38,370 nucleotides of DNA, taken from the NCBI GenBank assembly GCA_022736535.1, contig DZCT01000002.1:1-38370 (forward strand). The letters are read 5' to 3'. Below are positions 13,051-35,822 of this stretch, one piece after another (the first letter of the stretch is position 1; each line of letters opens with the position of its first letter). The position numbers were made by a program, and so were the translations under genes. The DNA is from Desulfatirhabdium butyrativorans (GTDB lineage: Bacteria > Desulfobacterota > Desulfobacteria > Desulfobacterales > JAIFKL01). The notes below the pieces were generated by a model. That model searched no databases and was not told where the DNA came from. It worked only from the letters and a program-made list of their open reading frames with translations.

Positions 13051-13650
13051 ATGATTGAGGAAAAAGTGATAACAACGGGTACGAATTCAGCTATCGGAGC
13101 CGGAAGTGCAAATACCGCCGCTGCTACTACTGCTGTACCGGCTGTTGCCGCCAAAACCGCCGCAGTTACAGCGGCTCCGACCGCTGCTACAGCCGCACCG
13201 GTTGCCGCTGCCAAGACTGCCGCTGCTGCTTCGGCGATGCCCGCAGCCGCGACTATGGCAGCGCCGGCGGCTACTGCTGCCAAAACCGCCGCTGTCACAG
13301 CCGCACCGAGTGCTGTACCGGTTGCCGGAGCCGCTAAAACTGCCGTAGCGATGCCCGCAGCTATGAGTTCGGCAATGCCGGCTGCAACTGCTGCCAAAAC
13401 TGTCGCTGCTACAGGTGCAGGCGCATCATCTGCTGTACCCGCTGCCGGAGCAGCTAAAGTTTCTGCCGGAACCGGACTTGCAAAAACCGCCCCTATTGCA
13501 AAAGCACTCGGAGCAAAAACACTCGGAGCCTTGGCATTTGTGCCGCTTCCCGTATTAGGCGTTTTATCGTTGGCAGGTATTATCGGTGTTGAATTTTGGA
13601 TGGGCAAAAGAGACAGCAAACCGAAATCAACGCCCAAAAAGAAAAAATAA
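13051..13650 (+). CDS. Alanine-rich repeat protein (199 aa) with a C-terminal hydrophobic helix and a polybasic tail; function unknown
   Basis: GAGGGAGAG Shine-Dalgarno-like run 6-14 nt upstream of ATG 13051, with an in-frame stop at 13027. About six ~20-aa units each contain one AAK(T/V) (Lys at residues 35, 55, 78, 96, 116, 136). The C-terminus is FVPLPVLGVLSLAGIIGVEFWMG followed by KRDSKPKSTPKKKK. Repeat units 13150-13185 and 13279-13314 differ by four synonymous third-position changes (gca/gct, gtt/gtc, gcg/gcc, gct/gca) and one non-synonymous codon. That pattern fits selection on this frame. Confidence 0.6.
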   Translation: MIEEKVITTGTNSAIGAGSANTAAATTAVPAVAAKTAAVTAAPTAATAAPVAAAKTAAAASAMPAAATMAAPAATAAKTAAVTAAPSAVPVAGAAKTAVAMPAAMSSAMPAATAAKTVAATGAGASSAVPAAGAAKVSAGTGLAKTAPIAKALGAKTLGALAFVPLPVLGVLSLAGIIGVEFWMGKRDSKPKSTPKKKK

Positions 13651-18040: not shown

Positions 18041-18077
18041 TACAGAACAAGTTGGAGGATCGAGGCGGTTCTCTGAA

Positions 18078-18107
18078 ACTGTCATTCTGAGCGAAGCGAA
18101 GAATCTC
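18078..18107 (+). repeat. Solo copy of the CTGTCATTCTGAG..GAAGAATCTC unit
   Basis: ACTGTCATTCTGAGCGAAGCGAAGAATCTC lies in the spacer between the ligase gene and NRPS3. It is near-identical to 35665-35694. Confidence 0.85.
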
Positions 18108-18132: not shown

Positions 18133-21100
18133 ATGTTTGCCAAAAAAAATGTAAAGAATATCTGCGCATTGACGCCGCTTCAGGAAGGCATTCTTTTTCA
18201 TGCGCTGTACAGCAAGGAAAATGCAACTTATTTTGAACAATTCAACTATCATATCTCCGGAAAGACAGATATTCCGCTGTTTGAAGCCGCCTGGAATGAA
18301 CTGATGCGGCGGCATGATATTTTCAGAACCGTGTTTGTGCATAAAAATGTGCCCCAGCCCTTACAGATTGTTCTCAAAGAACGCAAGATTGACTTTACTT
18401 TTGAAGACATCCGCAGTCTCAGCCCGGAAGCGCAGCGGGACCGCTGGCTCGTTTACAGAGAAAAAGATAAGAAAAGATATTTTGACCTGAGCAAAGATGC
18501 GCTGATGCGGGTGGCGGTGTTTCAACTGGCTGAAAATTCATTCAATATAACATGGAGCTTTCATCACATCGTCATGGACGGCTGGAGCGTGGGCATTGTT
18601 TATGACGAGCTGATTACTCTTTATCATTCCATGAGAAACGGAAACACAACGACACTGCCGGCGCCCGTGTCTTTCGGCGAGTATGTGAAATGGCTGAAAA
18701 AACAGGATACCGAAGCTGCAAAAGACTACTGGCGGAAATATTTGGCAGACTACCGCCGCCTGACCGGTTTGCCTCGTATTCTCGGAGAAAAGAAAAAAGA
18801 ATTTGTCAAAAAGACTTTTGAGTTCAAACTTTCTGAAACCATGTCTCAAGGATTGCGGGATACGGCTGCCCGGCATCATGTGACCGTCAACACGGTGATT
18901 CAGGTGATCTGGGGTATTCTTTTGGGGAAATACAACGATGCGACAGATGCGGTCTTTGCCGCAACCGTTTCGGGCAGACCTGCTGATCTCAAAGGTGTTG
19001 AGCGCATTGTCGGACTTTTTATCAATGCGATTCCGGTCCGCATTCAGATGAGACAGGGACAGACGACAGAAGCTTTGCTGCAAAAGACGCATCATGACGC
19101 TGCGGAAAACAAAGACTACCATTATTACTCGCTGGCAGACATTCAGTCAGAGACGCTTCTCAAACAGCGCCTTCTGGATCATCTTCTGATATTTGAAAGT
19201 TATCCGGATTTGGGGAAGTCGGAAGGACGCGGGGAGACCGAGTTTGTCATTGACGAGTTTGAACAGTTTGAACTCACCAACTATGATCTTTCCGTACAGG
19301 TTTTTCCGGAAGAGACATTTCATTTCTGTGTTATTTATAACGCTTCGGTTTATGAGCAAAACATAATAGAAAAGATTGAACCGCATCTGAAAACAATTAT
19401 TGAGTCAATTCTGAAAGATGCAGAAGTCGAACCGTCACAAATTGCGCTGCTTTCACCTGATGAGCAGGAGACATATCGGAAAGCTGCAAATGAGATAAAT
19501 GAGTCATTGCTGAAACTGCCTGTGCAGAGAGACGGAGCAAGAAGTTTGTCGGCAGTTTATGCAGAGCCGGAAAACGAGGCGCAGGAAAAATTGGTCTCGA
19601 TATGGAAAGAAGTCATGAATGTCGGGACCCTCGGCATTGATGACAACTTTTTTGAACTGGGCGGACACAGCCTGATGGCAACCCGGATTGTCTCCCGCAT
19701 CCATAAGATATTTGAAGTCGAAATCACCTTGCAGGAATTTTTTGACCGTCCGAATGTGAGGAAATTAAGCGAAGTCATTTCCCGGCACGCTGCCGCCGCG
19801 TATTCGGAGATTGAAGTCATTCCCGAACAGGAAGACTACGAAGTCTCCCATTCTCAGCGCAGACTCTGGATTTTAGACCGGATGGAAGAAAATTTCATTG
19901 CTTATAATCAGTCTGCGGGTTTTCTTTTTAAAGGAGATATGGACATTCCCGCGTTAAAACGTGCAGTTCGCTCGGTCTGCCGGCGGCATGAATCCCTGAG
20001 AACCGTCTTTGTTATGAAAGACGGAACGCCGAGACAGAAAATTCAGGCAGCCTCGCAAGTTGAGATTACAGAAACTGACTTGAGCCGTGCGGAGAATAAA
20101 GAAGATATAGCAAAAAATTATGCAAGGAAAGAGGCAACGCTTCCTTTTGATTTGGAAAAGGGACCCCTGTTGAGAGTCAGCATCCTGCGGCTTACAGATG
20201 ACTCCCGTTTATTGCTCATAAATATTCATCATATTATCTGCGACGGCTGGTCGGTTGTGCTTTTTGAAAATGAGATATTGACGCTGTATAAATCCTTTAC
20301 AGAAGGGCATGAAGCGGATTTATCTCCTTTGAAAATACAGTACAAAGACTACTCGGCATGGCATAACCGGCTTTTGGAAAGCGAGAATATCCGGGCGCAT
20401 CAGGCATACTGGCATCAGAAATTATCCGGCGAACTGCCGGTACTGAATCTCCCGACAGATTACCCGCGTCCCGCTACACTGAGCTATAAGGGAAACACCG
20501 TAACGCATGTTCTGAACGCCGAACTTTCCGCATCTCTTGATCAATTTTGCAGAGAAAAGCAAGTCAGTCTTTTTATGACTCTGCTCGCGGGCGCAAAAGT
20601 GCTGCTGCACCGCTATACGGGACAGAACGACATCATCATCGGTTCGCCGATTGCCGGCAGAATTCACCCGGATTTGGAACATCAGATCGGTTTCTTTGTG
20701 AACACGCTTGCCCTGAGAGATACGGTTCTCGGCGATGAAAGTTTTATGACGCTGCTGTCAAAGGTGAAGCAGACCACGCTTGAGGCATACCAGCATCAGG
20801 TTTACCCTTTTGACAAGCTGGTAGAAGAACTTGATGTTCAGCGGGACATCAGCCGCTCGCCGATTTTTGACGTGATGCTCGTTTTGCAGAATACCGACGA
20901 GATAAAAACTGATCTGCCGAATGTGGAGATAAAGCCTTTTGCTTATGAAACCGGCGTGAGTCAGTTTGATCTCACGCTGATTTTCACGCAGGATGAGGGA
21001 AAACTCCGGCTCGACATGAACTGCAACACCGATCTGTTTGCAAATGAGACAATCCTGCGGATGGGAAGGCATTTCGAGGAAGTGCTGAAAAGCATTCTGT

Positions 21101-24100
21101 CAGCGCCGGAGCATCAGATTCGGAACATAAACCTGTTGAGCGCGGCAGAGAAACAGCAGATTCTCTTTGACTTTAACAACACCAAAGCCCCGTATCCCGA
21201 AGACAAGACATTGGCTGATCTCTTTGAAGAACAAGTCATCAGGACGCCGGACAATATCGCGGTCATTTTTGAGGAAAAGCAGATGACTTACAGGGAACTG
21301 AATGACGCGGCAGACCGGCTCGCGCATGATCTCAGAGACAAGTATCAGATTCAGCCTGATGATCTGGTTGCTGTGATGATGAAGCGTAGCGAACAGCTCA
21401 TTGTCTCATTGCTGGGAATTTTGAAAGCAGGCGGCGCGTATCTGCCCATAGACCCCGCCTATCCTCAGAAAAGAATTGACTACATGCTCAACGACAGCGC
21501 ATGTAAGGTTTGCATAGGGGTACGGGGTACGGGGTTAGAGGTTCGGGGGGCGGGGGCCGCCCCTCGCACCTCTAACCTCAAACCTCAAACCTCGAACCTC
21601 GCCTACGTCATCTACACCTCCGGTTCTACCGGACAGCCCAAAGGCGTTATGATTGAACACCGCGGGTTTGTAAACATGACGCTGGATCAGATCAGAGGCT
21701 TCGGCGTGTCGGAATCGGATCGGGTGTTGCAGTTTTCTTCTCCTTCTTTTGACGCGTCATTGTCTGAGATATTCATGGCATTGCTCAAAGGCGCGGCATT
21801 GGTCATGATTTCGACAGACACGATTAATGACTCACATCGTTTTCTCGAATATATTGAGAGACATAAGGTAAGCGTGATTACCTTTCCGCCGGTCTATCTG
21901 AATATGCTCAACAAACATCCGCTGCCCACGGTCAGAACCATTATCACCGCGGGCGAACCCGCCATTCTCGGCGATGTGCTGTTTTACTGCAAAGACAGAC
22001 AGTATTTCAACGCCTACGGGCCTACGGAAACATCGGTCTGCACCTCATATTACAGAGTGCCGCCTGATTTCCGTGCGCCCTATTCCGGGTTCCGCATTCC
22101 CATCGGCGCGCCCATCGCCAATTCCTCTGTTTTTATTGTGGATGAGTCAATACAGCCCGTGCCGGTAGGCGTGACGGGAGAAATCTGTTTTTCGGGCGTG
22201 GGACTTGCCAGGGGGTATCTCAACAAGCCGGAACTGACCGCAGAGAAATTTGTCGAAAATCCTTTTCACCCCGGAACCCGGCTGTACAAAATCGGCGATC
22301 TGGGAAAATGGCTTCCGGACGGCAATATTGTTTTTCTCGGGAGAAAAGACGATCAGGTAAAAGTCAGAGGCTTCCGCATCGAACTGGGAGAAATCGAAAG
22401 CCGCCTGAAACAGCATCCGCAAATAACAGACGCATTGGTTCTGGCTGTGGGGGAAAACGAAAACTCAAGGCAATTAGTCGCATATCTCATTACGCATTCG
22501 GAAATAAATCTGGGAGAAATGAGAAATTTTCTGGGCGAAAGTCTTCCGCCTTTTATGATGCCGAATCATTTTGTGAGTCTTGAAAAATTCCCGCTCACCG
22601 TAAACGGAAAAATTGACAAGCGGGCTTTGCCCGGCGTTTCATCGGATTTGTCTCACGGACCGGATGATATGCCGCCCCGGAACGAGACAGAAGCAACACT
22701 TCTGAATGTCTGGAAAAAACTGTTTCAGAAAGAGAAAATCGGCATTTATGATGACTTCTTCGCGCTCGGCGGCGATTCCGTCAAAGCCATTCAGACCGTA
22801 TCGCTGCTGCATGAGCAAAACCTGAAGGTCAGAGCCAAAGATATTTTTCAATACCCCACAGTTGCACAGTTGGCTAAAGCCGCTGTTTTGTCCGGGCGCG
22901 GTCTTGCAGCAAATCAGGAGATGATTTCCGGCTATGTGCCGCTGACCCCGATTACCGCATGGTTTTTTAAAGAATTTACGGTTGACAGACATCACTTCAA
23001 CCATTCCGACCTGTTCTGTGTCAGAGAAAGGCTTGACGAAGACGCGCTGCGCGCCGCGTTTGCAAAGATACAGGAACACCATGACGCGCTGAGAATGCGC
23101 TGCCGCTTTGAAAACGGAAACTGGAAATTGGAAATTGCGGGAGACAATTATCCCCTGCATTTTGAAGTAACAGATTTGCGAAACTCGGAACAGGCGGTTT
23201 CGGAACTGGAATCCCACGCACAGCAGCTTCAGTCAAGCCTGAATTTGAAGAAAGGTCCTCTGATGAAAGCGGTTTTGTTCCGAATGCCTCATCCGGAGTG
23301 TCAAAATGAAATTTTGACAAGCACAGACCGGCTGCTGATTATCGTGCATCATCTCGTGATTGACGGCGTTTCATGGCGTTTTTTTCTGGAAGACCTTTTG
23401 CGGGGATATGAGCAGTATTTATCAAATAAGACCGTTACCCTGCCCCCGAAAAGCGATTCTTTCAAAGAATGGGCGGAAGGGATTCAGACATACAGCAGCA
23501 GCGATGAACTGCTCGGAGAAAAAGAATATTGGCGGCAGTTGGAAGCAACGCCGACCGGAGAACTGCCATGGGATGATGATTCCTCCCCCTCAGACACGGA
23601 TGAGGCGCGGATGAAGCATACCTTCACAGCCGATTTTAACTTGTCTCAGGCGGAAACCGAAATGCTTCTGACCTGTAGAGACGCAACATTTTGTGTCTCT
23701 GACGCGGCGAGAACCGATGAACTGCTGCTCACCGCACTGGCATGGGCGCTGAAACAATGGCACGGACATGACAGAACGCTGATTCATCTTGAAGGACACG
23801 GACGGGAAGATATTGTCAGGGGGACCGATGTCAGCCGGACCGTCGGCTGGTTCACGGCGGTTTATCCGGTGATCTTAGATTCGCCGGACGCATCTGATGC
23901 GGTGCAGATCGGGACAATTAAAGGCATTCTGCGAAATATTCCCAACCGGGGCATGGGATACGGGATTCTGAAATATGTGACGCCCTCGGCATATAAACAG
24001 GAATTGAAGTTCAATTTAAAGCCCCGCATCAGTTTCAACTATCTGGGTGAAATGGAGGCTTACGGAACCGGCATTTTTGAAAGGGCAACCGAATCCTGCG

Positions 24101-24288
24101 GCAATGCGGTCAGCCCGGACGCAAAGCTTATCCATGATATAGACATCAATGCGGTCATCATTGAAAAAAAACTGCATATTGACCTGACGGCAAACGGCTT
24201 GAAGTGCCGCCCCGAGCGCATTGAAAAAATTTTATCGGATTTTAAAAATAAATTGAAAGAAATAATTGCAAAGTGTGAAAAAATATGA
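18133..24288 (+). CDS. Non-ribosomal peptide synthetase: C-T (no A domain) followed by C-A-T-E; no release domain
   Basis: C1: LTPLQEGILFH, RHDIFRTVF, HHIVMDGW (from 18562). T: FFELGGHSL (Ser 19669-19671). C2: SHSQRRLWILD, RHESLRTVF, HHIICDGW (from 20227). A: LAYVIYTSGSTGQPKG (from 21598), NAYGPTETS, YKIGDLGKW, GRKDDQVKVRGFRIELGEIE, NGKIDKRALP. T: GGDSV (Ser 22777-22779). E: HHLVIDGVSW (from 23347), EGHGRE, RTVGWFT, FNYLGE. The protein ends ..IIAKCEKI with no thioesterase or reductase motif. Confidence 0.95.
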   Translation: MFAKKNVKNICALTPLQEGILFHALYSKENATYFEQFNYHISGKTDIPLFEAAWNELMRRHDIFRTVFVHKNVPQPLQIVLKERKIDFTFEDIRSLSPEAQRDRWLVYREKDKKRYFDLSKDALMRVAVFQLAENSFNITWSFHHIVMDGWSVGIVYDELITLYHSMRNGNTTTLPAPVSFGEYVKWLKKQDTEAAKDYWRKYLADYRRLTGLPRILGEKKKEFVKKTFEFKLSETMSQGLRDTAARHHVTVNTVIQVIWGILLGKYNDATDAVFAATVSGRPADLKGVERIVGLFINAIPVRIQMRQGQTTEALLQKTHHDAAENKDYHYYSLADIQSETLLKQRLLDHLLIFESYPDLGKSEGRGETEFVIDEFEQFELTNYDLSVQVFPEETFHFCVIYNASVYEQNIIEKIEPHLKTIIESILKDAEVEPSQIALLSPDEQETYRKAANEINESLLKLPVQRDGARSLSAVYAEPENEAQEKLVSIWKEVMNVGTLGIDDNFFELGGHSLMATRIVSRIHKIFEVEITLQEFFDRPNVRKLSEVISRHAAAAYSEIEVIPEQEDYEVSHSQRRLWILDRMEENFIAYNQSAGFLFKGDMDIPALKRAVRSVCRRHESLRTVFVMKDGTPRQKIQAASQVEITETDLSRAENKEDIAKNYARKEATLPFDLEKGPLLRVSILRLTDDSRLLLINIHHIICDGWSVVLFENEILTLYKSFTEGHEADLSPLKIQYKDYSAWHNRLLESENIRAHQAYWHQKLSGELPVLNLPTDYPRPATLSYKGNTVTHVLNAELSASLDQFCREKQVSLFMTLLAGAKVLLHRYTGQNDIIIGSPIAGRIHPDLEHQIGFFVNTLALRDTVLGDESFMTLLSKVKQTTLEAYQHQVYPFDKLVEELDVQRDISRSPIFDVMLVLQNTDEIKTDLPNVEIKPFAYETGVSQFDLTLIFTQDEGKLRLDMNCNTDLFANETILRMGRHFEEVLKSILSAPEHQIRNINLLSAAEKQQILFDFNNTKAPYPEDKTLADLFEEQVIRTPDNIAVIFEEKQMTYRELNDAADRLAHDLRDKYQIQPDDLVAVMMKRSEQLIVSLLGILKAGGAYLPIDPAYPQKRIDYMLNDSACKVCIGVRGTGLEVRGAGAAPRTSNLKPQTSNLAYVIYTSGSTGQPKGVMIEHRGFVNMTLDQIRGFGVSESDRVLQFSSPSFDASLSEIFMALLKGAALVMISTDTINDSHRFLEYIERHKVSVITFPPVYLNMLNKHPLPTVRTIITAGEPAILGDVLFYCKDRQYFNAYGPTETSVCTSYYRVPPDFRAPYSGFRIPIGAPIANSSVFIVDESIQPVPVGVTGEICFSGVGLARGYLNKPELTAEKFVENPFHPGTRLYKIGDLGKWLPDGNIVFLGRKDDQVKVRGFRIELGEIESRLKQHPQITDALVLAVGENENSRQLVAYLITHSEINLGEMRNFLGESLPPFMMPNHFVSLEKFPLTVNGKIDKRALPGVSSDLSHGPDDMPPRNETEATLLNVWKKLFQKEKIGIYDDFFALGGDSVKAIQTVSLLHEQNLKVRAKDIFQYPTVAQLAKAAVLSGRGLAANQEMISGYVPLTPITAWFFKEFTVDRHHFNHSDLFCVRERLDEDALRAAFAKIQEHHDALRMRCRFENGNWKLEIAGDNYPLHFEVTDLRNSEQAVSELESHAQQLQSSLNLKKGPLMKAVLFRMPHPECQNEILTSTDRLLIIVHHLVIDGVSWRFFLEDLLRGYEQYLSNKTVTLPPKSDSFKEWAEGIQTYSSSDELLGEKEYWRQLEATPTGELPWDDDSSPSDTDEARMKHTFTADFNLSQAETEMLLTCRDATFCVSDAARTDELLLTALAWALKQWHGHDRTLIHLEGHGREDIVRGTDVSRTVGWFTAVYPVILDSPDASDAVQIGTIKGILRNIPNRGMGYGILKYVTPSAYKQELKFNLKPRISFNYLGEMEAYGTGIFERATESCGNAVSPDAKLIHDIDINAVIIEKKLHIDLTANGLKCRPERIEKILSDFKNKLKEIIAKCEKI
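19570..19783 (+). other. Carrier (T) domain of an adenylation-less C-T module inside NRPS3
   Basis: ENEAQEKLVSIWKEVMNVGTLGIDDNFFELGGHSLMATRIVSRIHKIFEVEITLQEFF follows the first C domain after a short linker. No A-domain core motif lies between them. Domain boundaries are approximate. Confidence 0.8.
21517..21600 (+). repeat. Palindromic heptamer-repeat element, intragenic and in frame (A domain of NRPS3)
   Basis: Twelve contiguous 7-mers. G-rich arm: GGGGTAC GGGGTAC GGGGTTA GAGGTTC GGGGGGC GGGGGCC. C-rich arm: GCCCCTC GCACCTC TAACCTC AAACCTC AAACCTC GAACCTC. GGTTAGAGGT (21533-21542) and ACCTCTAACC (21568-21577) are exact reverse complements. 84 nt = 28 codons, translated GVRGTGLEVRGAGAAPRTSNLKPQTSNL. 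Confidence 0.9.
23292..23323 (+). repeat. Small palindromic element, family 2, intragenic and in frame (E domain of NRPS3)
   Basis: TCCGGAGTGTCAAAATGAAATTTTGACAAGCA. Perfect 9-bp stem TGTCAAAAT / ATTTTGACA with loop GAA. It encodes part of HPECQNEILTS, 10 residues absent from the two sister E domains. Confidence 0.85.
23676..23701 (+). repeat. Small palindromic element, family 3, intragenic and in frame (E domain of NRPS3)
   Basis: TAGAGACGCAACATTTTGTGTCTCTG matches the intergenic palindrome at 33258-33283 at 23 of 26 positions. The stem keeps a G-U wobble on the + strand RNA. It encodes CRDATFCVSD in place of the (K/N)VNHAY(N/H)T motif of the sister E domains. Confidence 0.8.
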
Positions 24289-25479: not shown

Positions 25480-25490
25480 GAAGTGAGCAA

Positions 25491-25560
25491 CAGGTTCGAG
25501 GTTTGGGGTTCGAGGTTCGAGGACTTCTCCCGCACCCGCACTCCGTACCCCGTACCCCAT
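25491..25560 (+). repeat. Palindromic heptamer-repeat element, intergenic copy
   Basis: CAGGTTC GAGGTTT GGGGTTC GAGGTTC GAGGACT | TCTCCCG CACCCGC ACTCCGT ACCCCGT ACCCCAT. The right arm ACCCCGTACCCC is the reverse complement of the GGGGTACGGGGT seen at 21517. It lies between the stop at 25479 and the start at 25575. Confidence 0.9.
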
Positions 25561-25574
25561 CTGGGAGAAAAAAA

Positions 25575-27371
25575 ATGAGGAAAAAACAAAATACGGTGTT
25601 TGACAAAGCATTCCGTCTTTGTACGGCAATCCTGATGCTGATGTTCTCCGCTTTCGGATGCGGCGGCGAACATGAAGATTATGTCTCTGAGAGAGAAGGA
25701 CGCTTTATAGACAGCGCCGTGCAGGGACTGTCCTATATTTCCGGCAGTCGTACCGACATAACCGATGAAAACGGGACTTTCTTTTATGAAAAAGGCAAAG
25801 ATGTCACATTCAGGCTCGGAAACATTGTACTCGGGTCTGCGACAACTGTTCTGGAATTAGATATAAAAACACAGGAACTTGCGCCGGACATACTGACGCT
25901 GACCCCCAGAGATCTGGTTTCCGCAGCGGAAAGCGACAGAGACCCGCAGGTGACAAATATTCTGCGCTTTTTGCAGACATTGGATGATGATGCGAATCCG
26001 GATAACGGCATTATGCTGTCAGAATCTGTGAGACAAAAAGCAGAAAAATACAGTACGGAAGTTGACTTCTCATTAAGCACAGACAAATTTGAAGAAAAAA
26101 TACAGACTGTCGTAAATGATCTGCTGGGCAAAGAGCGGGAACTGATTTCCGCGGTCAGGGCGCAGAATCATTTTATTCGGACCAAATTGCAGGAGATATT
26201 GGACAAAGCGGTTTCAGAAAACGAGGTTCCCGGCGTGGCACTCGTTGCGGAAGTTCCCTGCGAGGGAGAAGACTGTGCAGACGGCGCGATGGACGGCGTG
26301 ACTTATTCGGACGGAAAATTTACATGGAAGCTGACAAGCGGTTATTCCAATCTGGAAACCCAAACGCCCATGACCGCCGATACCCGATTCCGGGTTGCCA
26401 GTCTGACCAAAACATTTGTGGCAATGACCGTCATGCAAATGGTCGAGGAAGGAAAGATAACTCTCGACGATTCCATAGAACAGTGGTTTCCCGGACTGAT
26501 TCCCAACGGTGAAAACATCAATATCCGTCAGGTGGTGAATCACTCCAGCGGGCTTTATAATTTCTATGAAGTGCCTTCCGACTGGTTTTTTGATTTCCTG
26601 TTTCTCCGTCAGGATAAATGGGATCCGCTTGATCTCATTGAACTTGCGGTTGAAGAAGGACCGACATTTGCTCCCGGCACAGACTGGCATTATTCAAACA
26701 CAAATTATGTCCTGCTGGGAATGCTCATAGAGAAAGTGACCGGCAACAAGTGGGAAGATGAGATACGAAATCGTTTTATCAATAAATACGGACTGTCCGA
26801 CACCATTGTACCGGAAACCGGGGAGTCAAATCTTGAAGGTCCTTATGTTCAGAATCCGACAGAAGGAAAATACGCCCACGGCTACATTGACCTGTATGAT
26901 GTGACCGGCGCCATGTACGGAAGTAAAAACAAAGGCTTGGAAGACGCTTCGACTCGGGAACCGTCTGCTGCGAGTTCATCGGCATGTATGATTTCCTCGC
27001 CTGAAAATCTGTGCTTATGGATCAGACTCATCGGCGAAGGCAGGCTGTTCGGTGAAGGCTATGATTTTGTCAATGACACCGGCGTTGATCCTGAACTTTA
27101 TTTTCCGATGAATGAGGCAACGGATTGCGGTCCCAATATCTACAAAAATCTCGCAAACAACATGCTGATTGCTTCGGGTAATTTTCTGGGTTACGATGTG
27201 GGTATTGTCTATGATCCGAATCATGGGATACCGATTGCCACATGCGCCAACAGGACATTGAGGTCTGAAGACGGTCAGATAAAAGATATTGTCATTTTTG
27301 ACGCGATTGAGATTCTGGGCGCCGGACTGCCGACGGCTGAAAAAAGGTCGGCGGATTCTGAAGAAATTTGA
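25575..27371 (+). CDS. Secreted (possibly lipoprotein) serine hydrolase of the beta-lactamase / S12 D-peptidase fold, with a ~230-aa N-terminal domain of unknown function
   Basis: I chose the ATG at 25575 (GGGAGA 8 nt upstream); the ORF-track start 25476 would translate the heptamer repeat. N-terminus MRKKQNTVFDKAFRLCTAILMLMFSAFGCGG has a signal peptide with a Cys at a lipobox-like position. SxxK: ASLTKTF (26400-26411). YxN: YSNTNY (from 26691). HG in KYAHGYID. Confidence 0.85.
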   Translation: MRKKQNTVFDKAFRLCTAILMLMFSAFGCGGEHEDYVSEREGRFIDSAVQGLSYISGSRTDITDENGTFFYEKGKDVTFRLGNIVLGSATTVLELDIKTQELAPDILTLTPRDLVSAAESDRDPQVTNILRFLQTLDDDANPDNGIMLSESVRQKAEKYSTEVDFSLSTDKFEEKIQTVVNDLLGKERELISAVRAQNHFIRTKLQEILDKAVSENEVPGVALVAEVPCEGEDCADGAMDGVTYSDGKFTWKLTSGYSNLETQTPMTADTRFRVASLTKTFVAMTVMQMVEEGKITLDDSIEQWFPGLIPNGENINIRQVVNHSSGLYNFYEVPSDWFFDFLFLRQDKWDPLDLIELAVEEGPTFAPGTDWHYSNTNYVLLGMLIEKVTGNKWEDEIRNRFINKYGLSDTIVPETGESNLEGPYVQNPTEGKYAHGYIDLYDVTGAMYGSKNKGLEDASTREPSAASSSACMISSPENLCLWIRLIGEGRLFGEGYDFVNDTGVDPELYFPMNEATDCGPNIYKNLANNMLIASGNFLGYDVGIVYDPNHGIPIATCANRTLRSEDGQIKDIVIFDAIEILGAGLPTAEKRSADSEEI

Positions 27372-27374
27372 AAA

Positions 27375-27444
27375 AAGGTTAGGGGTTAGGGGTTCGAGGT
27401 TCGGGGTCAGAGGTCGCACCCCGAACCTCGCACCCCGAACCCCA
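27375..27444 (+). repeat. Palindromic heptamer-repeat element, intergenic copy (strong hairpin)
   Basis: AAGGTTA GGGGTTA GGGGTTC GAGGTTC GGGGTCA GAGGTCG | CACCCCG AACCTCG CACCCCG AACCCCA. CGAGGTTCGGGGT (27395-27407) pairs perfectly with ACCCCGAACCTCG (27418-27430). It lies between the stop at 27371 and the start at 27451. Confidence 0.9.
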
Positions 27445-27450
27445 TAAAAT

Positions 27451-29085
27451 ATGAACCTGCTGAAACTATATAAAAAAGAGTCAACTGTTTCCGGCAACTC
27501 GGTGATGTTTATGGCGATTGCTTCCGGCATCGCACAGGGACTTCTGCTGGGCATCATCACCACTGCTGCAGCCACGGCTTCCTACGACAGCCTGAATTTC
27601 AGATTCTTTCTGCTGTTTGTGATTGCCTTCGCCATTGTTATCATCGGAAAACGCTTTGCTTTGAAAAGAGCCACTGCCATCGCCGAGGGGATCATCAAAC
27701 GTATAAGGATAAGAATTTCCGATAAAATCAGAAATTCCGAACTCCTGTTTCTGGAACATACCGGAAAAGCCGAAATCTATACACGGATTACTTACAACAC
27801 CAATCTGATTTCCGAATCCGCGGTGCTGATTATCAATGCAGCCCAGTCCGGCATTGTGCTGTTTTTCTGCCTGTTTTATATCGCTGTCTTATCGAACTTG
27901 GCTTTTTTCATCACCGTTATTGCCATCGGCGCGGCTACAGCCAATTATATGTTGCAGCAGGATAAAATTGACATAGAAATCCGTGAAACCGCCGGAAAAG
28001 AAAGCACCTTCTTTGAGATGCTGAATCAGACTCTTGACGGCTTCAAAGAACTGAAAATGAACCGAAAAAAAAGCGATGACCTTTTCGGATATCTGACAAA
28101 AATAGCAGATGAAACCGAGGAACTGAAAGTAAAAACCGGCTTCAGATTTGTCACAGAACTGATGTTCTCCCAGGTCTTTTTTTATACGCTGCTGGCGGTC
28201 ATTGTTTTTGTTCTGCCCCGATTGGACCCGGCAAATCCTTCATTGGTTATCCGACTCACTGCCGCGATTCTGTTTATTATCGGACCGGTAAATCTGATGG
28301 TGGGCGCGATACCGCTTTTTTCCAGAGCCAACATGGCGGTGGAAATTCTCTATGAACTTGAAAAGCGTTTGGATGATGCTGCAGCGCCGTTTAAAGTCGG
28401 GGACAAGCCCTATATCAGAAAGATCGAATCCTTTAACGAACTCCGGCTTGACAACCTTTCTTTTTCCTATGCCGATCCTTACGGAACGCCTTTATTTACG
28501 GTCGGTCCCGTCAATATGACGATCCGGAAAGGAGAAATCGTCTTTATCGTCGGCGGCAACGGCAGCGGAAAATCAACGCTGCTCAAGCTTTTAACCGGAC
28601 TGTATTATCCCGATGCCGGCACCATCCGATTGGATGATTTGACGATTGATAAGACATCCTATCAGGCATATCGGGAAATGTTTTCAATTATTTTCAGTGA
28701 TTTTCATGTGTTTGACAGACTCTACGGCTTGGATGAAACCGATTTCGATAAAATCCGAAATCTTATCAAGCTGATGGAACTGGAAAAGAAAACAGAAGTG
28801 ATTGACGGCGAATTTACCAATATCAAGCTTTCCACGGGCCAGCGGAAAAGACTGGCGATGATCTGTGCTTTGCTGGAAAACCGTCCGATCTGCGTGTTTG
28901 ATGAATGGGCGGCGGATCAGGATCCGATATTCAGAAAATATTTTTATGAAACTCTGCTGAACGATTTGAGAGCGCAGGGAAAAACAATTATCGCGGTCAG
29001 CCATGACGACCGATATTTCGGCTTTGCAGACAGAGTATTAAAAATGGAATACGGCAAGTTTGTCGAGTACAGCAGTCAGATTTGA
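27451..29085 (+). CDS. ABC exporter, fused TMD-NBD, cyclic-peptide transporter family (SyrD / PvdE / YojI-like)
   Basis: 544 aa with about six N-terminal TM segments. Walker A GGNGSGKST (28552-28578), signature LSTGQRKRLA, Walker B ICVFDEWAADQD, SHDDRYF. By eye the NBD strongly resembles E. coli YojI as I recall its sequence. Confidence 0.9.
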   Translation: MNLLKLYKKESTVSGNSVMFMAIASGIAQGLLLGIITTAAATASYDSLNFRFFLLFVIAFAIVIIGKRFALKRATAIAEGIIKRIRIRISDKIRNSELLFLEHTGKAEIYTRITYNTNLISESAVLIINAAQSGIVLFFCLFYIAVLSNLAFFITVIAIGAATANYMLQQDKIDIEIRETAGKESTFFEMLNQTLDGFKELKMNRKKSDDLFGYLTKIADETEELKVKTGFRFVTELMFSQVFFYTLLAVIVFVLPRLDPANPSLVIRLTAAILFIIGPVNLMVGAIPLFSRANMAVEILYELEKRLDDAAAPFKVGDKPYIRKIESFNELRLDNLSFSYADPYGTPLFTVGPVNMTIRKGEIVFIVGGNGSGKSTLLKLLTGLYYPDAGTIRLDDLTIDKTSYQAYREMFSIIFSDFHVFDRLYGLDETDFDKIRNLIKLMELEKKTEVIDGEFTNIKLSTGQRKRLAMICALLENRPICVFDEWAADQDPIFRKYFYETLLNDLRAQGKTIIAVSHDDRYFGFADRVLKMEYGKFVEYSSQI

Positions 29086-29123
29086 AAAACAGGTGACTTG
29101 ACCTTCACACGCTTGCTGCTCTG

Positions 29124-29169
29124 TCCGGAGTGCTAAAATGAAATTTTAGCAAAGCATAGGTGCTAAAAT
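29124..29169 (+). repeat. Small palindromic element, family 2, intergenic copy plus an extra half-site
   Basis: TCCGGAGTGCTAAAATGAAATTTTAGCAAAGCA (29124-29156). Stem TGCTAAAAT / ATTTTAGCA with loop GAA. TGCTAAAAT recurs at 29161-29169. It matches 23292-23323 except for two compensatory dinucleotide swaps and a 1-nt indel. Confidence 0.85.
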
Positions 29170-29215
29170 TCGCTCCGCTCCGCTTTTATAAGATGACGCA
29201 GTCCGGAACGGCTTG

Positions 29216-30508
29216 ATGACAATATTTCGGAGTGAAATAAAAATCAGAAAAATGTTTAAAAAAATTTTCAATAAAATAAAAGAGATATACAATACGATTT
29301 TAGAGAAATTCCACGGGAATATCTCCGTGCTGATTGTTCTTGTTCTGATTCAACTGCTCCTTATTGCCTATCTGTTTAACAACATTGTCTGTACGGTTGA
29401 GTCAGGGGAAGCGGGTGTTTTATACAAGCGATTCGGCGGCGGGACTATCACGGACAAAGTTTTTCCCGAAGGGATTTATTTCATATATCCCTGGGACAGG
29501 CTCTATGTTTACAATGTCAGGGTTCAGCAGAAAGGACATAAATTCCATGTGCTGACAAAAACCGGATTGAAGGTTCAGTTATCCATAAGCGTTCGTTATT
29601 ACCCGGAATACAATCTCCTCGGCATCCTGCATCAGAAAGTGGGACCCAGTTATGTAGACGAAATCGTTATTCCGGAAATCGAATCGGTGCTGCGTCTGAT
29701 TGTAGGACAGTTGGACGCGGAGGAGATTTACACCACCAAAACCGGGCTGATTGACGCGGCAATCAACGAGGCCATCGAACAGATTTCCCGCAGATTTGTC
29801 AAAGTGGACGATGTGATCATCAAAGAAGTGGAACTGCCCGAAAGTGTTGCGGATTCCATCCGTTACAAAATCGAGCAGAAACACATGGCAGAAGCCCATC
29901 TGTTTAAGATAGAGAAAGAAAAAAGAGAAGCGGAAAGAAAGCGGATCGAAGCCGGCGGTCTGAAAGATTACAATCATATTGTCAACACCTCGCTTTCGGA
30001 AAACATACTACAGTGGATGGGCATTCAGGCAACTTTGCAGTTGGCAAATTCGGACAATTCAAAAGTGATAGTGGTCGGCGCGGGCAAAAGAGGTCTGCCT
30101 GTTATCGGAAGCATTCTGCTGAATGACGGAATGCCCGAAATCAGCATCGGAAGCGGTGAAAAAGCCGGGACCTCAGAGAAAAACAAATCCGGCAAAACTG
30201 CCGAAGAACAGGAGAAACAAAGCCAATCCGGTGAGACAGAATCCCCTGAAAAAACAGAAAGCAGCGAAGCATCGGAAACCGTCAAACCGGAACAGACATC
30301 CGGCTCCGGACGCCGATATGAGTTTGTACGGGACCCGAATGAGGCGGCACCCCGTGAATCTGAAGAAATGAAGCAAAAAGAACGCTCTGAAATCAAAGAT
30401 AAATCCGAAACGGTCACGGAAAAAGACCGCTCCGGAATGTCAACCGAAACCGAAAAGAATCGGTCAGAACTGACCGGAAAAACAGATACATCGGATGCAA
30501 ACAGGTAA
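29216..30508 (+). CDS. SPFH / band-7 (prohibitin-stomatin-HflK/C family) membrane protein with a ~120-aa Glu/Lys/Ser/Thr-rich tail
   Basis: N-terminal TM ISVLIVLVLIQLLLIAYLF. SPFH core VESGEAGVLYKRFGGG...LKVQLSISVRYYP...VIPEIESVLRLIVGQLDAEEIYTTK. Coiled-coil segment EQKHMAEAHLFKIEKEKREAERKRIEA. The start is ambiguous (ATG 29216 or ATG 29252). Confidence 0.8.
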   Translation: MTIFRSEIKIRKMFKKIFNKIKEIYNTILEKFHGNISVLIVLVLIQLLLIAYLFNNIVCTVESGEAGVLYKRFGGGTITDKVFPEGIYFIYPWDRLYVYNVRVQQKGHKFHVLTKTGLKVQLSISVRYYPEYNLLGILHQKVGPSYVDEIVIPEIESVLRLIVGQLDAEEIYTTKTGLIDAAINEAIEQISRRFVKVDDVIIKEVELPESVADSIRYKIEQKHMAEAHLFKIEKEKREAERKRIEAGGLKDYNHIVNTSLSENILQWMGIQATLQLANSDNSKVIVVGAGKRGLPVIGSILLNDGMPEISIGSGEKAGTSEKNKSGKTAEEQEKQSQSGETESPEKTESSEASETVKPEQTSGSGRRYEFVRDPNEAAPRESEEMKQKERSEIKDKSETVTEKDRSGMSTETEKNRSELTGKTDTSDANR

Positions 30509-33230: not shown

Positions 33231-33290
33231 TCTCGCAAAGGCGCAAAGGTCGCAAAGCAGAGACGCAAAATTTTGCGTCTCTGCGTCTCC
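33231..33290 (+). repeat. Composite intergenic repeat: three CGCAAAG direct repeats plus a 26-bp perfect palindrome (family 3)
   Basis: CGCAAAG at 33234, 33242 and 33251. CAGAGACGCAAAA|TTTTGCGTCTCTG at 33258-33283 is a perfect palindrome. A related TGCAAAGGGCGCAAAG lies at 33367-33382. Confidence 0.85.
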
Positions 33291-35630: not shown

Positions 35631-35822
35631 GGGTAGCGGTGCAGAAGAGGTGATGAACCCTCTCACTGTCATTCTGAGTGCAGCGAAGAATCTCGTTTTT
35701 TATAATACGCTGTTATAATAAAAGATTCTTCACTGCGTTCAGAATGACAGGTCATACAGAGATTCTTCACTGCGTTCAGAATGACAGAAGCAGAAATCAT
35801 CACCTCTTCTACACCACTACCC
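35631..35822. repeat. 192-bp nested inverted-repeat (MITE-like) element between the two pLGIC paralogs
   Basis: Outer arms GGGTAGCGGTGCAGAAGAGGTGATGA (35631-35656) and TCATCACCTCTTCTACACCACTACCC (35797-35822) match at 24 of 26 positions. Inside are one forward unit ACTGTCATTCTGAGTGCAGCGAAGAATCTC (35665-35694), an AT-rich spacer with a TTATAATA direct repeat, and two inverted units AGATTCTTCACTGCGTTCAGAATGACAG (35723-35750 and 35760-35787). Confidence 0.9.

What the first reader, a model, noticed from the sequence alone, without database searches (positions are those of the whole stretch)
23292..23323. Second repeat family inserted in frame just upstream of the epimerase HHxxxDG motif, with compensatory stem changes
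TCCGGAGTGTCAAAATGAAATTTTGACAAGCA in the NRPS3 E domain matches the intergenic TCCGGAGTGCTAAAATGAAATTTTAGCAAAGCA at 29124-29156. The only substitutions are CT to TC in the left arm and AG to GA in the right arm. These are paired changes that keep a perfect 9-bp stem, and there is also a 1-nt indel. The segment between GPLMK and HH is 26 aa here and 16 aa in both sister E domains, so there are 10 extra residues (within HPECQNEILTS). Covariation argues that the hairpin, or a dyad binding site, is what is conserved, even inside a coding sequence.
Basis: seen in the sequence. Interest (0 to 1): 0.75.

Follow-up and report, generated by a model that had tools for sequence, protein, structure and literature searches.

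The report
Palindromic repeat inserted in NRPS gene
A 30-base hairpin sequence sitting in frame inside a working peptide-synthetase gene is a stray copy of a small, multi-copy palindromic repeat family of sulfate-reducing bacteria; this kind of insertion is already known, but this repeat family does not seem to have been described.

Summary
The 32-nt motif at 23292-23323 matches 29124-29156, and the only substitutions are two paired stem changes. It adds exactly 10 codons (HPECQNEILT) to a beta-hairpin turn just before the epimerase HHxxxDG motif. That insert is unique among 123 E domains.

It is one copy of a real repeat family, (TCC)GGAGTG-NN-AAAAT-GAA-ATTTT-NN-CA. There are at least 87 exact-pattern copies in 69 or more stretches of Thermodesulfobacteriota genomes, and 135 copies with a covariance model. 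Stem pairing is kept in 97.9% of cells, with several covarying stem variants.

Copies are almost all intergenic. They form tandem clusters and convergent inverted doublets (21 against 4 divergent) that fold into one long hairpin, as REP/REPIN elements do.

A distant orthologue has an empty site. A close orthologue (82% nt) has an 84-nt in-frame doublet at the same site. The gene is under purifying selection (dN/dS 0.19), and the insert is modelled as a surface loop.

Verdict: an old, tolerated, in-frame insertion of a REP/REPIN-like selfish element. No transposase, target duplication or RNA-level role was found. It is a new member of a known kind and moderately interesting.

The parts
23292..23323 (+). 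In-gene copy (a single unit) of the repeat, TC/GA stem subfamily: TCCGGAGTG TC AAAAT GAA ATTTT GA CA AGCA. Left arm 23299-23307, loop 23308-23310, right arm 23311-23319.
   Evidence: covariance-model hit at 23289-23329, 47.9 bits, E 2e-10
23290..23319 (+). The net 30-nt, 10-codon insertion HPECQNEILT in the NRPS3 epimerase domain. It lies in the turn between the two beta strands that precede the catalytic HHxxxDG.
   Evidence: AlphaFold model (loop 131-140, pLDDT about 66, between strands 122-130 and 141-150)
22900..24285 (+). Epimerase (E) domain of NRPS3, the host of the insertion. The fold is predicted intact and the domain is under purifying selection.
   Evidence: mean pLDDT 92.4, pTM 0.91; dN/dS 0.25 against the L053 orthologue
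18133..24288 (+). NRPS3 ORF (C-T-C-A-T-E, 2051 aa), which carries in-frame copies of three different small repeat families.
29124..29156 (+). Intergenic copy, left unit, CT/AG stem subfamily. Left arm 29131-29139, loop 29140-29142, right arm 29143-29151.
   Evidence: 51.2 bits
29160..29207 (-). Right unit of the intergenic doublet, inverted and of the long-loop type: GTGCTAAAAT-TCGCTCCGCTCCGC-TTTTATAAGATGAC-GCAGTCCGGA. Together with the left unit it forms a complete 84-nt heterodimer, 29124-29207.
   Evidence: aligns end to end with doublets in L024, L049, L057, L007 and L060

Best explanation
The 32-nt motif in the NRPS3 epimerase domain is one unit of a small, non-autonomous, hairpin-forming repeat family of Thermodesulfobacteriota. 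The family resembles REP/REPIN elements, or MITEs in the broad sense. The unit is (TCC)GGAGTG-NN-AAAAT-GAA-ATTTT-NN-CA(CTCC).

Shown:
- The family is multi-copy and occurs in many genomes.
- It is almost entirely intergenic.
- Its stem covaries.
- Copies occur as singlets, as tandem clusters, and as convergent inverted doublets bounded by TCCGGAGTGC...GCACTCCGGA. The doublets fold into one long hairpin.
- The window's intergenic copy is such a doublet.
- The in-gene copy arose by insertion into the turn of a beta-hairpin after the split from the L072/L073 lineage and before the split of the window organism from Desulfobacteraceae bin_101.
- The reading frame and the E-domain fold were kept, and the gene stayed under purifying selection.

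Inferred:
- The original insert was probably a full doublet of about 84 nt, as still seen in bin_101. The window lineage then lost 54 nt in frame, leaving the left unit.
- Only copies that happened to land in an open frame (3 of 6 frames for this variant) and in a tolerant surface loop survive in genes. This explains why coding copies are rare.
- Spread is most likely through a single-stranded DNA hairpin recognised by structure, as with a HUH/Y1-type (RAYT or IS200/IS605-like) enzyme. That fits the covarying stem, the conserved 5' tag, the doublet form and the lack of target-site duplications. No such enzyme was found.
- The hairpin's perfect symmetry could be kept by that recognition, by intrastrand template switching in quasi-palindromes, or by both.
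For: - Roughly 0.3 chance matches are expected for 21 fixed bases in 596 Gb. There are 135 non-overlapping covariance-model copies in 480 kb.
- Covariation: NN/NN is complementary in 78 of 87 copies, as CC/GG 24, CT/AG 24, TC/GA 15, CA/TG 12, TG/CA 2. 97.9% of cells are paired against about 46% when slid by one column. 4 of 9 pairs show changes on both sides, and 0 of 500 shuffles reach the observed score.
- Doublets: 21 convergent against 4 divergent, plus 27 tandem. Termini are consistent and there is no target-site duplication. An intact doublet folds at -24.9 kcal/mol, z -9.0.
- Location: only the NRPS pair and L047 are inside verified genes.
- Insertion history: the site is empty in L072/L073, in both sister domains and in 120 other E domains. 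The orthologue L053 (81.6% nt) has an 84-nt in-frame doublet at the same site.
- Tolerance: dN/dS is 0.19, with dS 0.59. The insert is a loop in a confident model.
- Precedent: REP dimers, heterodimers, clusters and in-frame intragenic REPs encoding 20-30 aa are described in PMC3733652. REPINs are described in PMC3116915, and in-frame RPEs and MITEs in PMC10969869.
Against: - No transposase of any kind was found. No RAYT/Y1 homologue appears among 2525 ORFs of the sampled loci (best E 0.09, and that hit is antisense to gatB). ORFs bracketed by copies are ordinary genes. Only about 0.5 Mb from more than 10 genomes could be examined, so this is weak negative evidence.
- The 5' tag is GGAG, not the GTAG or CGTC that defines the described REP superfamilies. 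The stem is AT-rich, unlike classical REPs.
- The same 25-mer, with 21 fixed bases, occurs in two classes of the phylum. That is broader than typical species-specific REPs and could mean a host function rather than selfish spread.
- The copy number in the window's own genome beyond this contig could not be measured.
- The insertion junctions cannot be resolved to the nucleotide, because the ancestral xDG codons were also altered.
Confidence: 0.78

Rival explanations
1. The hairpin is a functional cis-element that is selected for in its own right, even inside the NRPS3 coding sequence. It could be an mRNA structure for pausing, processing or stability, or a DNA site used by the host. On this reading the family is host-maintained rather than selfish.
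For: - The unit is 28/28 identical between the window and L053 although the E domain is 80% identical overall. Only 0.9% of 28-nt windows are fully identical, and 10/10 third positions are conserved against 69% outside.
- 21 fixed bases are shared across two classes.
- G:T pairs outnumber A:C mismatches 20 to 8 on the GAA-loop strand.
- As ssDNA the singlet beats all 200 shuffles.
Against: - The hairpin is weak, about -7 to -8 kcal/mol, and its RNA z-score is only -1.1.
- Orientation relative to flanking genes is unbiased, 24:29.
- Copies occur in tandem arrays and doublets with variable spacers.
- The insert differs in length between orthologues, 30 against 84 nt, and is absent from a more distant orthologue and from all other E domains.
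- No Rfam family matches.
- Identity can be explained by gene conversion against other copies.
Confidence: 0.1
2. It is a classical MITE derived from a DDE-transposase insertion sequence. On this reading the GGAGTGC.../...GCACTCC ends are terminal inverted repeats bound as double-stranded DNA, and the hairpin is incidental.
For: - Doublets have clear inverted termini.
- In Desulfatirhabdiaceae, elements of about 120 nt carry a TC/GA unit at each end (L018, L038, L055).
- Copies are non-coding, short and multi-copy.
Against: - No target-site duplication is visible around 24 doublets.
- Single units, each itself a hairpin, are the commonest form, and their internal stems covary. A dsDNA inverted-repeat model does not require this.
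- No parent insertion sequence was seen in the loci.
Confidence: 0.1
3. The palindrome is the operator of a dimeric transcription factor, and the in-gene copy is an internal regulatory site.
For: The core is a perfect 21-bp dyad with a 3-nt centre. Several copies lie just upstream of gene starts.
Against: - At least five symmetric stem variants coexist within single genomes. A single factor would fix contacted bases and let uncontacted ones drift independently, not covary.
- There are dozens of copies per genome, in tandem arrays and between convergent genes.
- The asymmetric 5' tag and the GAA loop are conserved.
Confidence: 0.03
4. It is a one-off local event: a patch of the nearby intergenic copy, 5.8 kb downstream, was copied into the E domain by ectopic repair or template switching.
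For: The two copies are close together on the same strand.
Against: - The in-gene copy has the TC/GA stem, not the neighbour's CT/AG.
- The orthologue in another species already has a TC/GA unit at the same site.
- TC/GA units occur in at least four other genomes.
Confidence: 0.02

Closest known systems
REP elements and REPINs (REP doublets forming hairpins; Bertels & Rainey 2011, PMC3116915; Di Nocera et al. 2013, PMC3733652)
   Same: - A short palindromic unit (stem 9-13 bp, loop 3 or 11-16 nt) with an unpaired tag at one end.
- Multi-copy and overwhelmingly extragenic.
- Inverted doublets are over-represented and fold into one long hairpin.
- There are heterodimers whose units differ in stem or loop length, and there are clusters.
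- Occasional in-frame intragenic single units and dimers encode 10-30 residues.
- No target-site duplication.
   Different: - The tag is GGAG (often TCCGGAG), not GTAG or CGTC.
- The stem is AT-rich (AAAAT/ATTTT) rather than GC-rich.
- No RAYT gene was found near any copy, though sampling was limited.
- The same unit is shared across two classes of Thermodesulfobacteriota, whereas many REP families are specific to a species or genus.
Rickettsia palindromic elements (RPE; Ogata et al. 2000 and 2002, as summarised in PMC10969869 and PMC3733652)
   Same: Palindromic selfish repeats inserted in frame into functional protein-coding genes. They add a peptide segment at positions compatible with the fold. 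The same family also occurs in intergenic DNA.
   Different: RPE-1 elements are about 100-150 bp, Rickettsia-specific and unrelated in sequence, and a large share of their copies are in genes. Here only about 3 of 130 copies are in genes, and the unit is 30-84 nt.
Bacterial MITEs (for example Correia, ERIC, Nezha and Chunjie; review PMC10969869)
   Same: Small, non-autonomous, with inverted ends. They are multi-copy and sometimes form in-frame fusions with host ORFs.
   Different: Classical MITEs have target-site duplications and a recognisable parent insertion sequence. Neither was seen here.

Membership tests
REP / REPIN | Short (20-40 bp) imperfect palindrome present in many copies, predominantly extragenic | tested here: met
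   At least 87 exact-pattern and 135 model-detected copies. Only the NRPS orthologue pair and L047 lie inside verified genes.
REP / REPIN | Inverted doublets are over-represented and fold into one long hairpin | tested here: met
   21 convergent against 4 divergent neighbour pairs. The L029 doublet folds at -24.9 kcal/mol, z -9.0. The window's 29124-29207 element aligns with doublets from a relative.
REP / REPIN | A RAYT (Y1/HUH transposase) gene in the genome, flanked by the same REPs | tested here: inconclusive
   phmmer with E. coli RayT against 2525 ORFs of all loci gave no significant hit. A regex for the HUH...Y motif found none. Bracketed ORFs are ordinary genes. Only about 0.5 Mb of more than 10 genomes was available, and whole genomes could not be scanned.
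GTAG / CGTC REP superfamilies (Di Nocera 2013) | An unpaired GTAG or CGTC tag at one end of the stem | tested here: not met
   The tag is GGAG in all copies, because the search pattern fixed it, and TCCGGAG in 63 of 135. So this is not a member of those two superfamilies, although the architecture is the same.
Classical DDE-type MITE | Terminal inverted repeats plus flanking target-site duplication, with a parent insertion sequence sharing the ends | tested here: not met
   Inverted ends are present, but no direct repeats flank 24 doublets and no insertion sequence was seen.
Rickettsia palindromic elements | Sequence family of Rickettsia, about 100-150 bp, frequently inside genes | tested here: not met
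   Different taxon, size and sequence. Coding copies are rare. It works like an RPE but is not a member.
CRISPR array | Regularly spaced repeats separated by unique spacers | tested here: not met
   In the arrays the spacers are identical. Examples are the 51-nt period in L063 and the 44-nt period in L052, so these are tandem duplications.
Intrinsic terminator | GC-rich stem followed by a T-run | tested here: not met
   The scan of 28900-29400 does not call the element, and there is no T-run after either copy.
Any curated RNA family (Rfam 15) | Match at the gathering score | tested here: not met
   No match in the window. 20 repeat-rich loci gave only tRNAs. A permissive scan gave only a meaningless snoRNA hit at E 0.28.

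The most novel reading that the evidence does not exclude
The hairpin may not be merely selfish. It could be a host-maintained element shared across at least two classes of Thermodesulfobacteriota, for example the substrate of a domesticated HUH enzyme, or a DNA or RNA structural signal. The in-gene NRPS3 copy would then be held constant at the nucleotide level (28/28 identical across dS of about 0.6) by selection on that structure rather than on the peptide.
Probability: 0.15. Interest if true: 0.6.

Novelty: new member of a known kind. Interest (0 to 1): 0.36.

Why it matters
- **Clean dated example.** It shows a tiny palindromic repeat entering a large, functional biosynthetic enzyme without breaking it. 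There is an empty-site outgroup, two differently remodelled filled sites, an intact predicted fold and clear purifying selection.
- **Annotation.** It defines a repeat family of sulfate-reducing and syntrophic bacteria that seems undescribed: GGAG tag, AT-rich covarying stem, GAA loop. Annotators can use it to explain odd loop insertions, spurious ORFs and assembly breaks in these genomes.
- **NRPS engineering.** It marks the turn before the HHxxxDG strand, and a second loop, as positions that tolerate 10-28 extra residues.
- **Limits.** It does not open a new mechanism. In-frame REP, RPE and MITE insertions are already known.

Tried and rejected
- **Assembly artefact or chance:** rejected. 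Two independent assemblies carry both copies, and 0.00 matches are expected.
- **Known RNA family:** none.
- **Terminator:** not called and no T-run.
- **CRISPR:** the spacers in the arrays are identical.
- **Local copy from the neighbouring intergenic element:** rejected. The stem subfamily differs, and the orthologue already has the TC/GA unit.
- **Transposase search:** a HUH regex, phmmer with E. coli RayT and Pfam on ORFs bracketed by copies were all negative. The one weak hit is antisense to gatB.
- **Plasmid, phage and viral-contig searches:** no copies.
- **Target-site duplications:** none seen.
- **Orientation bias relative to genes:** none. My crude ORF caller over-called 'inside ORF' copies. 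Re-inspection left only the NRPS pair and L047 as verified, plus an unverified 246-aa ORF in Desulfonema magnum with no Pfam match.
- **Metagenome scan for more NRPS3 orthologues:** only three loci came back, two of them near-identical, so constraint inside the gene could not be tested on more than one orthologue pair.
- **Literature searches:** no earlier description of this family in Desulfobacterales was found.
Full report
**1. The observation**

The sequence TCCGGAGTGTCAAAATGAAATTTTGACAAGCA is at 23292-23323, and TCCGGAGTGCTAAAATGAAATTTTAGCAAAGCA is at 29124-29156. A degenerate 28-nt pattern matches only these two sites in the window, with 0.00 matches expected from shuffles.

The differences are the paired CT/AG to TC/GA swap in the stem and one extra A. 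Each copy folds into a perfect 9-bp stem with a GAA loop. The hairpins are weak, about -7 kcal/mol, and as RNA they are not clearly better than shuffled sequence.

Translation and alignment of the three A-T-E regions show NRPS3 reading GPLMKAVLFRMP[HPECQNEILT]STDRLLIIVHHLVIDG. The sister domains read ...FQM-QDG-DRLL... and ...FKL-PDR-DRLL.... The insert is exactly 30 nt (23290-23319) and is in frame.

Across the two sister domains and 120 retrieved E domains the GPLMK..HHxxxDG segment is 28-30 residues. Only NRPS3 has 38.

The window corresponds to MAG GCA_975759245.1, contig CDKPDZ010000084.1. That assembly (99.96% identical) and an independent JGI metagenome contig (99.88%) both carry both copies.

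**2. It is a real, widespread repeat family**

I scanned the species-representative genome collection with GGAGTGNNAAAATGAAATTTTNNCA. This pattern has 21 fixed bases, so roughly 0.3 chance matches are expected in 596 Gb; that figure is my own estimate.

The stretches come from many genomes:
- Desulfobacterales, Desulfatirhabdiaceae and Desulfobacteraceae MAGs.
- Desulfonema magnum (Desulfococcaceae).
- Desulfatiglandales.
- Desulfoferrobacter suflitae (Syntrophobacteria).

Together these span at least two classes of Thermodesulfobacteriota.

A few copies are on contigs binned as Chloroflexota. They come from the same studies as the Desulfobacterales MAGs, so mis-binning is possible. One non-complementary match in Schleiferia is probably chance.

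No copy occurs in the plasmid, phage or viral-contig collections.

Extraction gave 87 exact-pattern copies. A covariance model built from 61 distinct copies found 135 non-overlapping copies among the best 150 hits in 480 kb of loci. In the window it found only the two known copies.

**3. Covariation**

At the two stem positions left free by the pattern, 78 of 87 copies are fully complementary. The variants are CC/GG 24, CT/AG 24, TC/GA 15, CA/TG 12, TG/CA 2 and GC/GC 1.

On the model alignment:
- 97.9% of stem cells are standard pairs, against about 46% when the partner column is slid by one.
- 4 of 9 pairs show changes on both sides, including positions my pattern had fixed.
- 0 of 500 shuffles reach the observed covariation score.

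Copies are related by descent, so the number of independent events is small. Still, at least four pair types at one position and three at another are maintained.

The two window copies each belong to a stem subfamily that is present in several genomes. The 'compensatory change' is therefore a difference between subfamilies, not a mutation pair that arose in NRPS3.

A dimeric operator would not predict covariation among symmetric variants. A hairpin recognised by its structure does. So does intrastrand template switching in quasi-palindromes; that second point rests on established knowledge of mutagenesis.

**4. Anatomy of the family**

- Half of the copies carry TCC before GGAG (63 of 135), and the loop is GAA in 113 of 135. 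A minority have an 11-16-nt loop such as GAGCGGAGCGAA.
- Of neighbouring copies within 150 nt, 27 are tandem, 21 convergent and only 4 divergent.
- The convergent doublets have the form TCC|GGAGTGC...GAA...GCA - spacer - TGC...TTC...GCACTCC|GGA. No direct repeats are visible outside them.
- An intact doublet folds into one long hairpin at -24.9 kcal/mol, z -9.0.
- Tandem arrays have identical spacers, for example a 51-nt period in D. magnum. They are duplications, not CRISPR arrays.
- The window's intergenic copy is the left unit of a complete 84-nt heterodimer, 29124-29207. Its right unit is the long-loop type with an ATAAGATGAC variant. It aligns end to end with doublets in the related genome bin_101.
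- Orientation relative to flanking genes is unbiased, 24 same against 29 opposite.
- G:T pairs outnumber A:C mismatches 20 to 8 on the GAA-loop strand. This is a mild hint about which strand folds.
- No Rfam family matches, and the terminator scan does not call the element.

**5. History of the in-gene copy**

L053, from Desulfobacteraceae bin_101, is the NRPS3 orthologue. It is 81.6% identical in nucleotides over 5.6 kb and 81% in amino acids.

It carries an element at the same site, but of 84 nt (28 codons): PECQNEILTTTTPNFQFGTPDEILTARQA. This comprises a TC/GA unit, a spacer, a second inverted unit whose diverged stem (GCCGAACT/AGTTTGGC) still pairs, and a partial duplicate. All of it is in frame.

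L072 and L073 are 61% identical in amino acids and share lineage-specific features with these orthologues. Their site is empty: GPLMKAVLFRL-DDG-DRLLIVVHH.

The insertion therefore happened after that split and before the window and bin_101 lineages separated. It was then remodelled.

Because doublets are the typical complete form, and the bin_101 insert is doublet-sized, I infer that a doublet inserted and the window lineage lost 54 nt in frame. The reverse order is not excluded. The junctions cannot be resolved to the base, because the ancestral xDG codons were also changed.

**6. Is the hairpin constrained inside the gene?**

The first 28 nt of the unit are identical in the two orthologues, although the E domain is 80% identical overall. 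Only 0.9% of 28-nt windows are fully identical. All 10 third-codon positions in the unit are identical, against 69% outside it, p about 0.02.

This is suggestive. It fits selection on the structure, but it equally fits homogenisation by gene conversion with other TC/GA copies.

**7. Tolerance by the protein**

dN/dS between the window and L053 is 0.19 for the whole gene, 0.25 for the E domain and 0.16 for the A domain, with dS 0.59. The gene is therefore functional in both lineages.

An AlphaFold model of the E domain is confident (mean pLDDT 92.4, pTM 0.91). It places the insert as a loop at residues 131-140 (pLDDT about 66), between strand 122-130 and strand 141-150. The second strand leads into the catalytic HH.

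For the TC/GA variant, three of the six reading frames through the unit are stop-free; this follows from reading the sequence. In-gene survivors are therefore expected to be rare and in frame.

A second, independent in-frame copy exists in L047. It is LLKFHFSTPE, in the opposite orientation, within the cohesin domain of a Big_9/cadherin/dockerin surface protein.

**8. Mechanism and its limits**

The architecture matches REP/REPIN elements as described in PMC3116915 and PMC3733652:
- a tagged palindrome;
- predominant inverted dimers, including heterodimers with different stems or loop lengths;
- clusters;
- intragenic dimers encoding 20-30 residues.

In-frame insertion of palindromic elements is also known for Rickettsia RPEs and for some MITEs (PMC10969869).

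I therefore favour spread through a structured ssDNA intermediate handled by a HUH/Y1-type enzyme. No such enzyme was found in the roughly 0.5 Mb available. The tag is GGAG, not GTAG or CGTC. Membership in the described REP superfamilies is therefore not met, and a RAYT link remains untested at genome scale. A DDE-type MITE origin is a minority alternative.

**9. Verdict**

What it is, however, is ordinary in kind. It is a tolerated selfish-element insertion in a surface loop of a functional enzyme, and it belongs to a REP/REPIN-like family that appears not to have been described. No evidence supports a role for the hairpin in NRPS3 expression.

Main limitations:
- There was no whole-genome census.
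- Only one close orthologue and one empty-site outgroup were available.

Noticed in passing
window 23677-23701 and 33258-33282: A different palindrome family. AGAGACGCAACATTTTGTGTCTCT lies in frame in the same E domain and replaces the conserved ...KVNHAY-NTE... segment with CRDATFCVSDAAR. A perfect intergenic copy, CAGAGACGCAAAATTTTGCGTCTCTG, folds at -21.8 kcal/mol, z -6.6. The orthologues L053 and L072 lack it (empty site LLTKAGQAY----AAGTDELL). In the model it is a loop with pLDDT about 49. It was not found in any other fetched locus.
   Followed up: partly
window 21509-21600, 25483-25558, 27367-27453: Palindromic arrays of heptamer-like repeats (GGTTCGA/GGGGTTA... facing CCCCGAA...). One lies in frame in the NRPS3 A domain between motifs A2 and A3. 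It encodes CIGVRGTGLEVRGAGAAPRTSNLKPQTSN, where the sister modules have a longer, unrelated segment. The orthologue L053 has a different low-complexity sequence there. The other two arrays are intergenic. Similar heptamer runs (AAGGGTC)n follow hairpin units in MAG GMC6.concoct.52 (L023, L059).
   Followed up: partly
window 18072-18107 and 35631-35822: A third small repeat, CTGTCATTCTGAGCGAAGCGAAGAATCTC, occurs as inverted copies just upstream of NRPS3. It also forms a nested inverted-repeat cluster between two Peripla_BP_6 genes. Its GAGCGAAGCGAAG core resembles the long-loop insert (GAGCGGAGCGAA) of some hairpin units.
   Followed up: no
L053, reverse strand, about 60 codons upstream of the hairpin site: The orthologue has a further 14-residue in-frame insertion (HSGFSSVERVSNPLYSGT region) that is absent from the window, L072 and the sister domains. 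This NRPS gene has been hit repeatedly by small insertions in both lineages.
   Followed up: no
L047 244-268 (Desulfatirhabdium butyrativorans MAG): An independent in-frame copy of the hairpin unit in the opposite orientation. It encodes LLKFHFSTPE within the cohesin domain of a 797-aa or longer Big_9/cadherin/dockerin surface protein.
   Followed up: yes
L018 451-570, L038 1615-1734, L055 652-772, and L026, L027, L037, L039 (Desulfatirhabdiaceae, UBA4064): The TC/GA units form both ends of a composite element of about 120 nt. The element is preceded by a conserved GGTTCCAATTTGGCCCAYY sequence, so the same hairpin seems to be reused as the terminus of a larger MITE-like repeat.
   Followed up: no
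all CT/AG and TC/GA copies, e.g. window 23295-23319 and 29127-29151: The unit reads like a miniature translation start: GGAG, 7 nt, then ATG AAA TTT TAG (or TGA), that is a Shine-Dalgarno-like tag followed by a 3-codon ORF, MKF*. The CC/GG and CA/TG variants lack the stop, so this is probably coincidental.
   Followed up: no
L063 7338-7470 (Desulfonema magnum chromosome), L052 3927-4144, L050 1-236: Head-to-tail arrays of 3-5 units with identical spacers, with periods of 51, 44 and about 41-55 nt. In D. magnum the array is stop-free in one frame (LLKFHFSTPENTNSEQA x3) at the end of a 246-aa ORF that has no Pfam match.
   Followed up: partly
L009 (Caldilinea aerophila MAG), L030 and L048 (Chloroflexota bin_187), L056 (Schleiferia thermophila): These exact-pattern copies lie outside Thermodesulfobacteriota. 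The Chloroflexota MAG contigs come from the same samples as Desulfobacterales MAGs, so mis-binning or transfer is possible. The Schleiferia match is not complementary at the free positions and is likely chance.
   Followed up: no
window 13051-13650: An ORF made of Ala/Pro/Thr-rich imperfect repeats (the 32-48-nt repeat families D9 and D12), lying between NRPS2 and the downstream genes.
   Followed up: no
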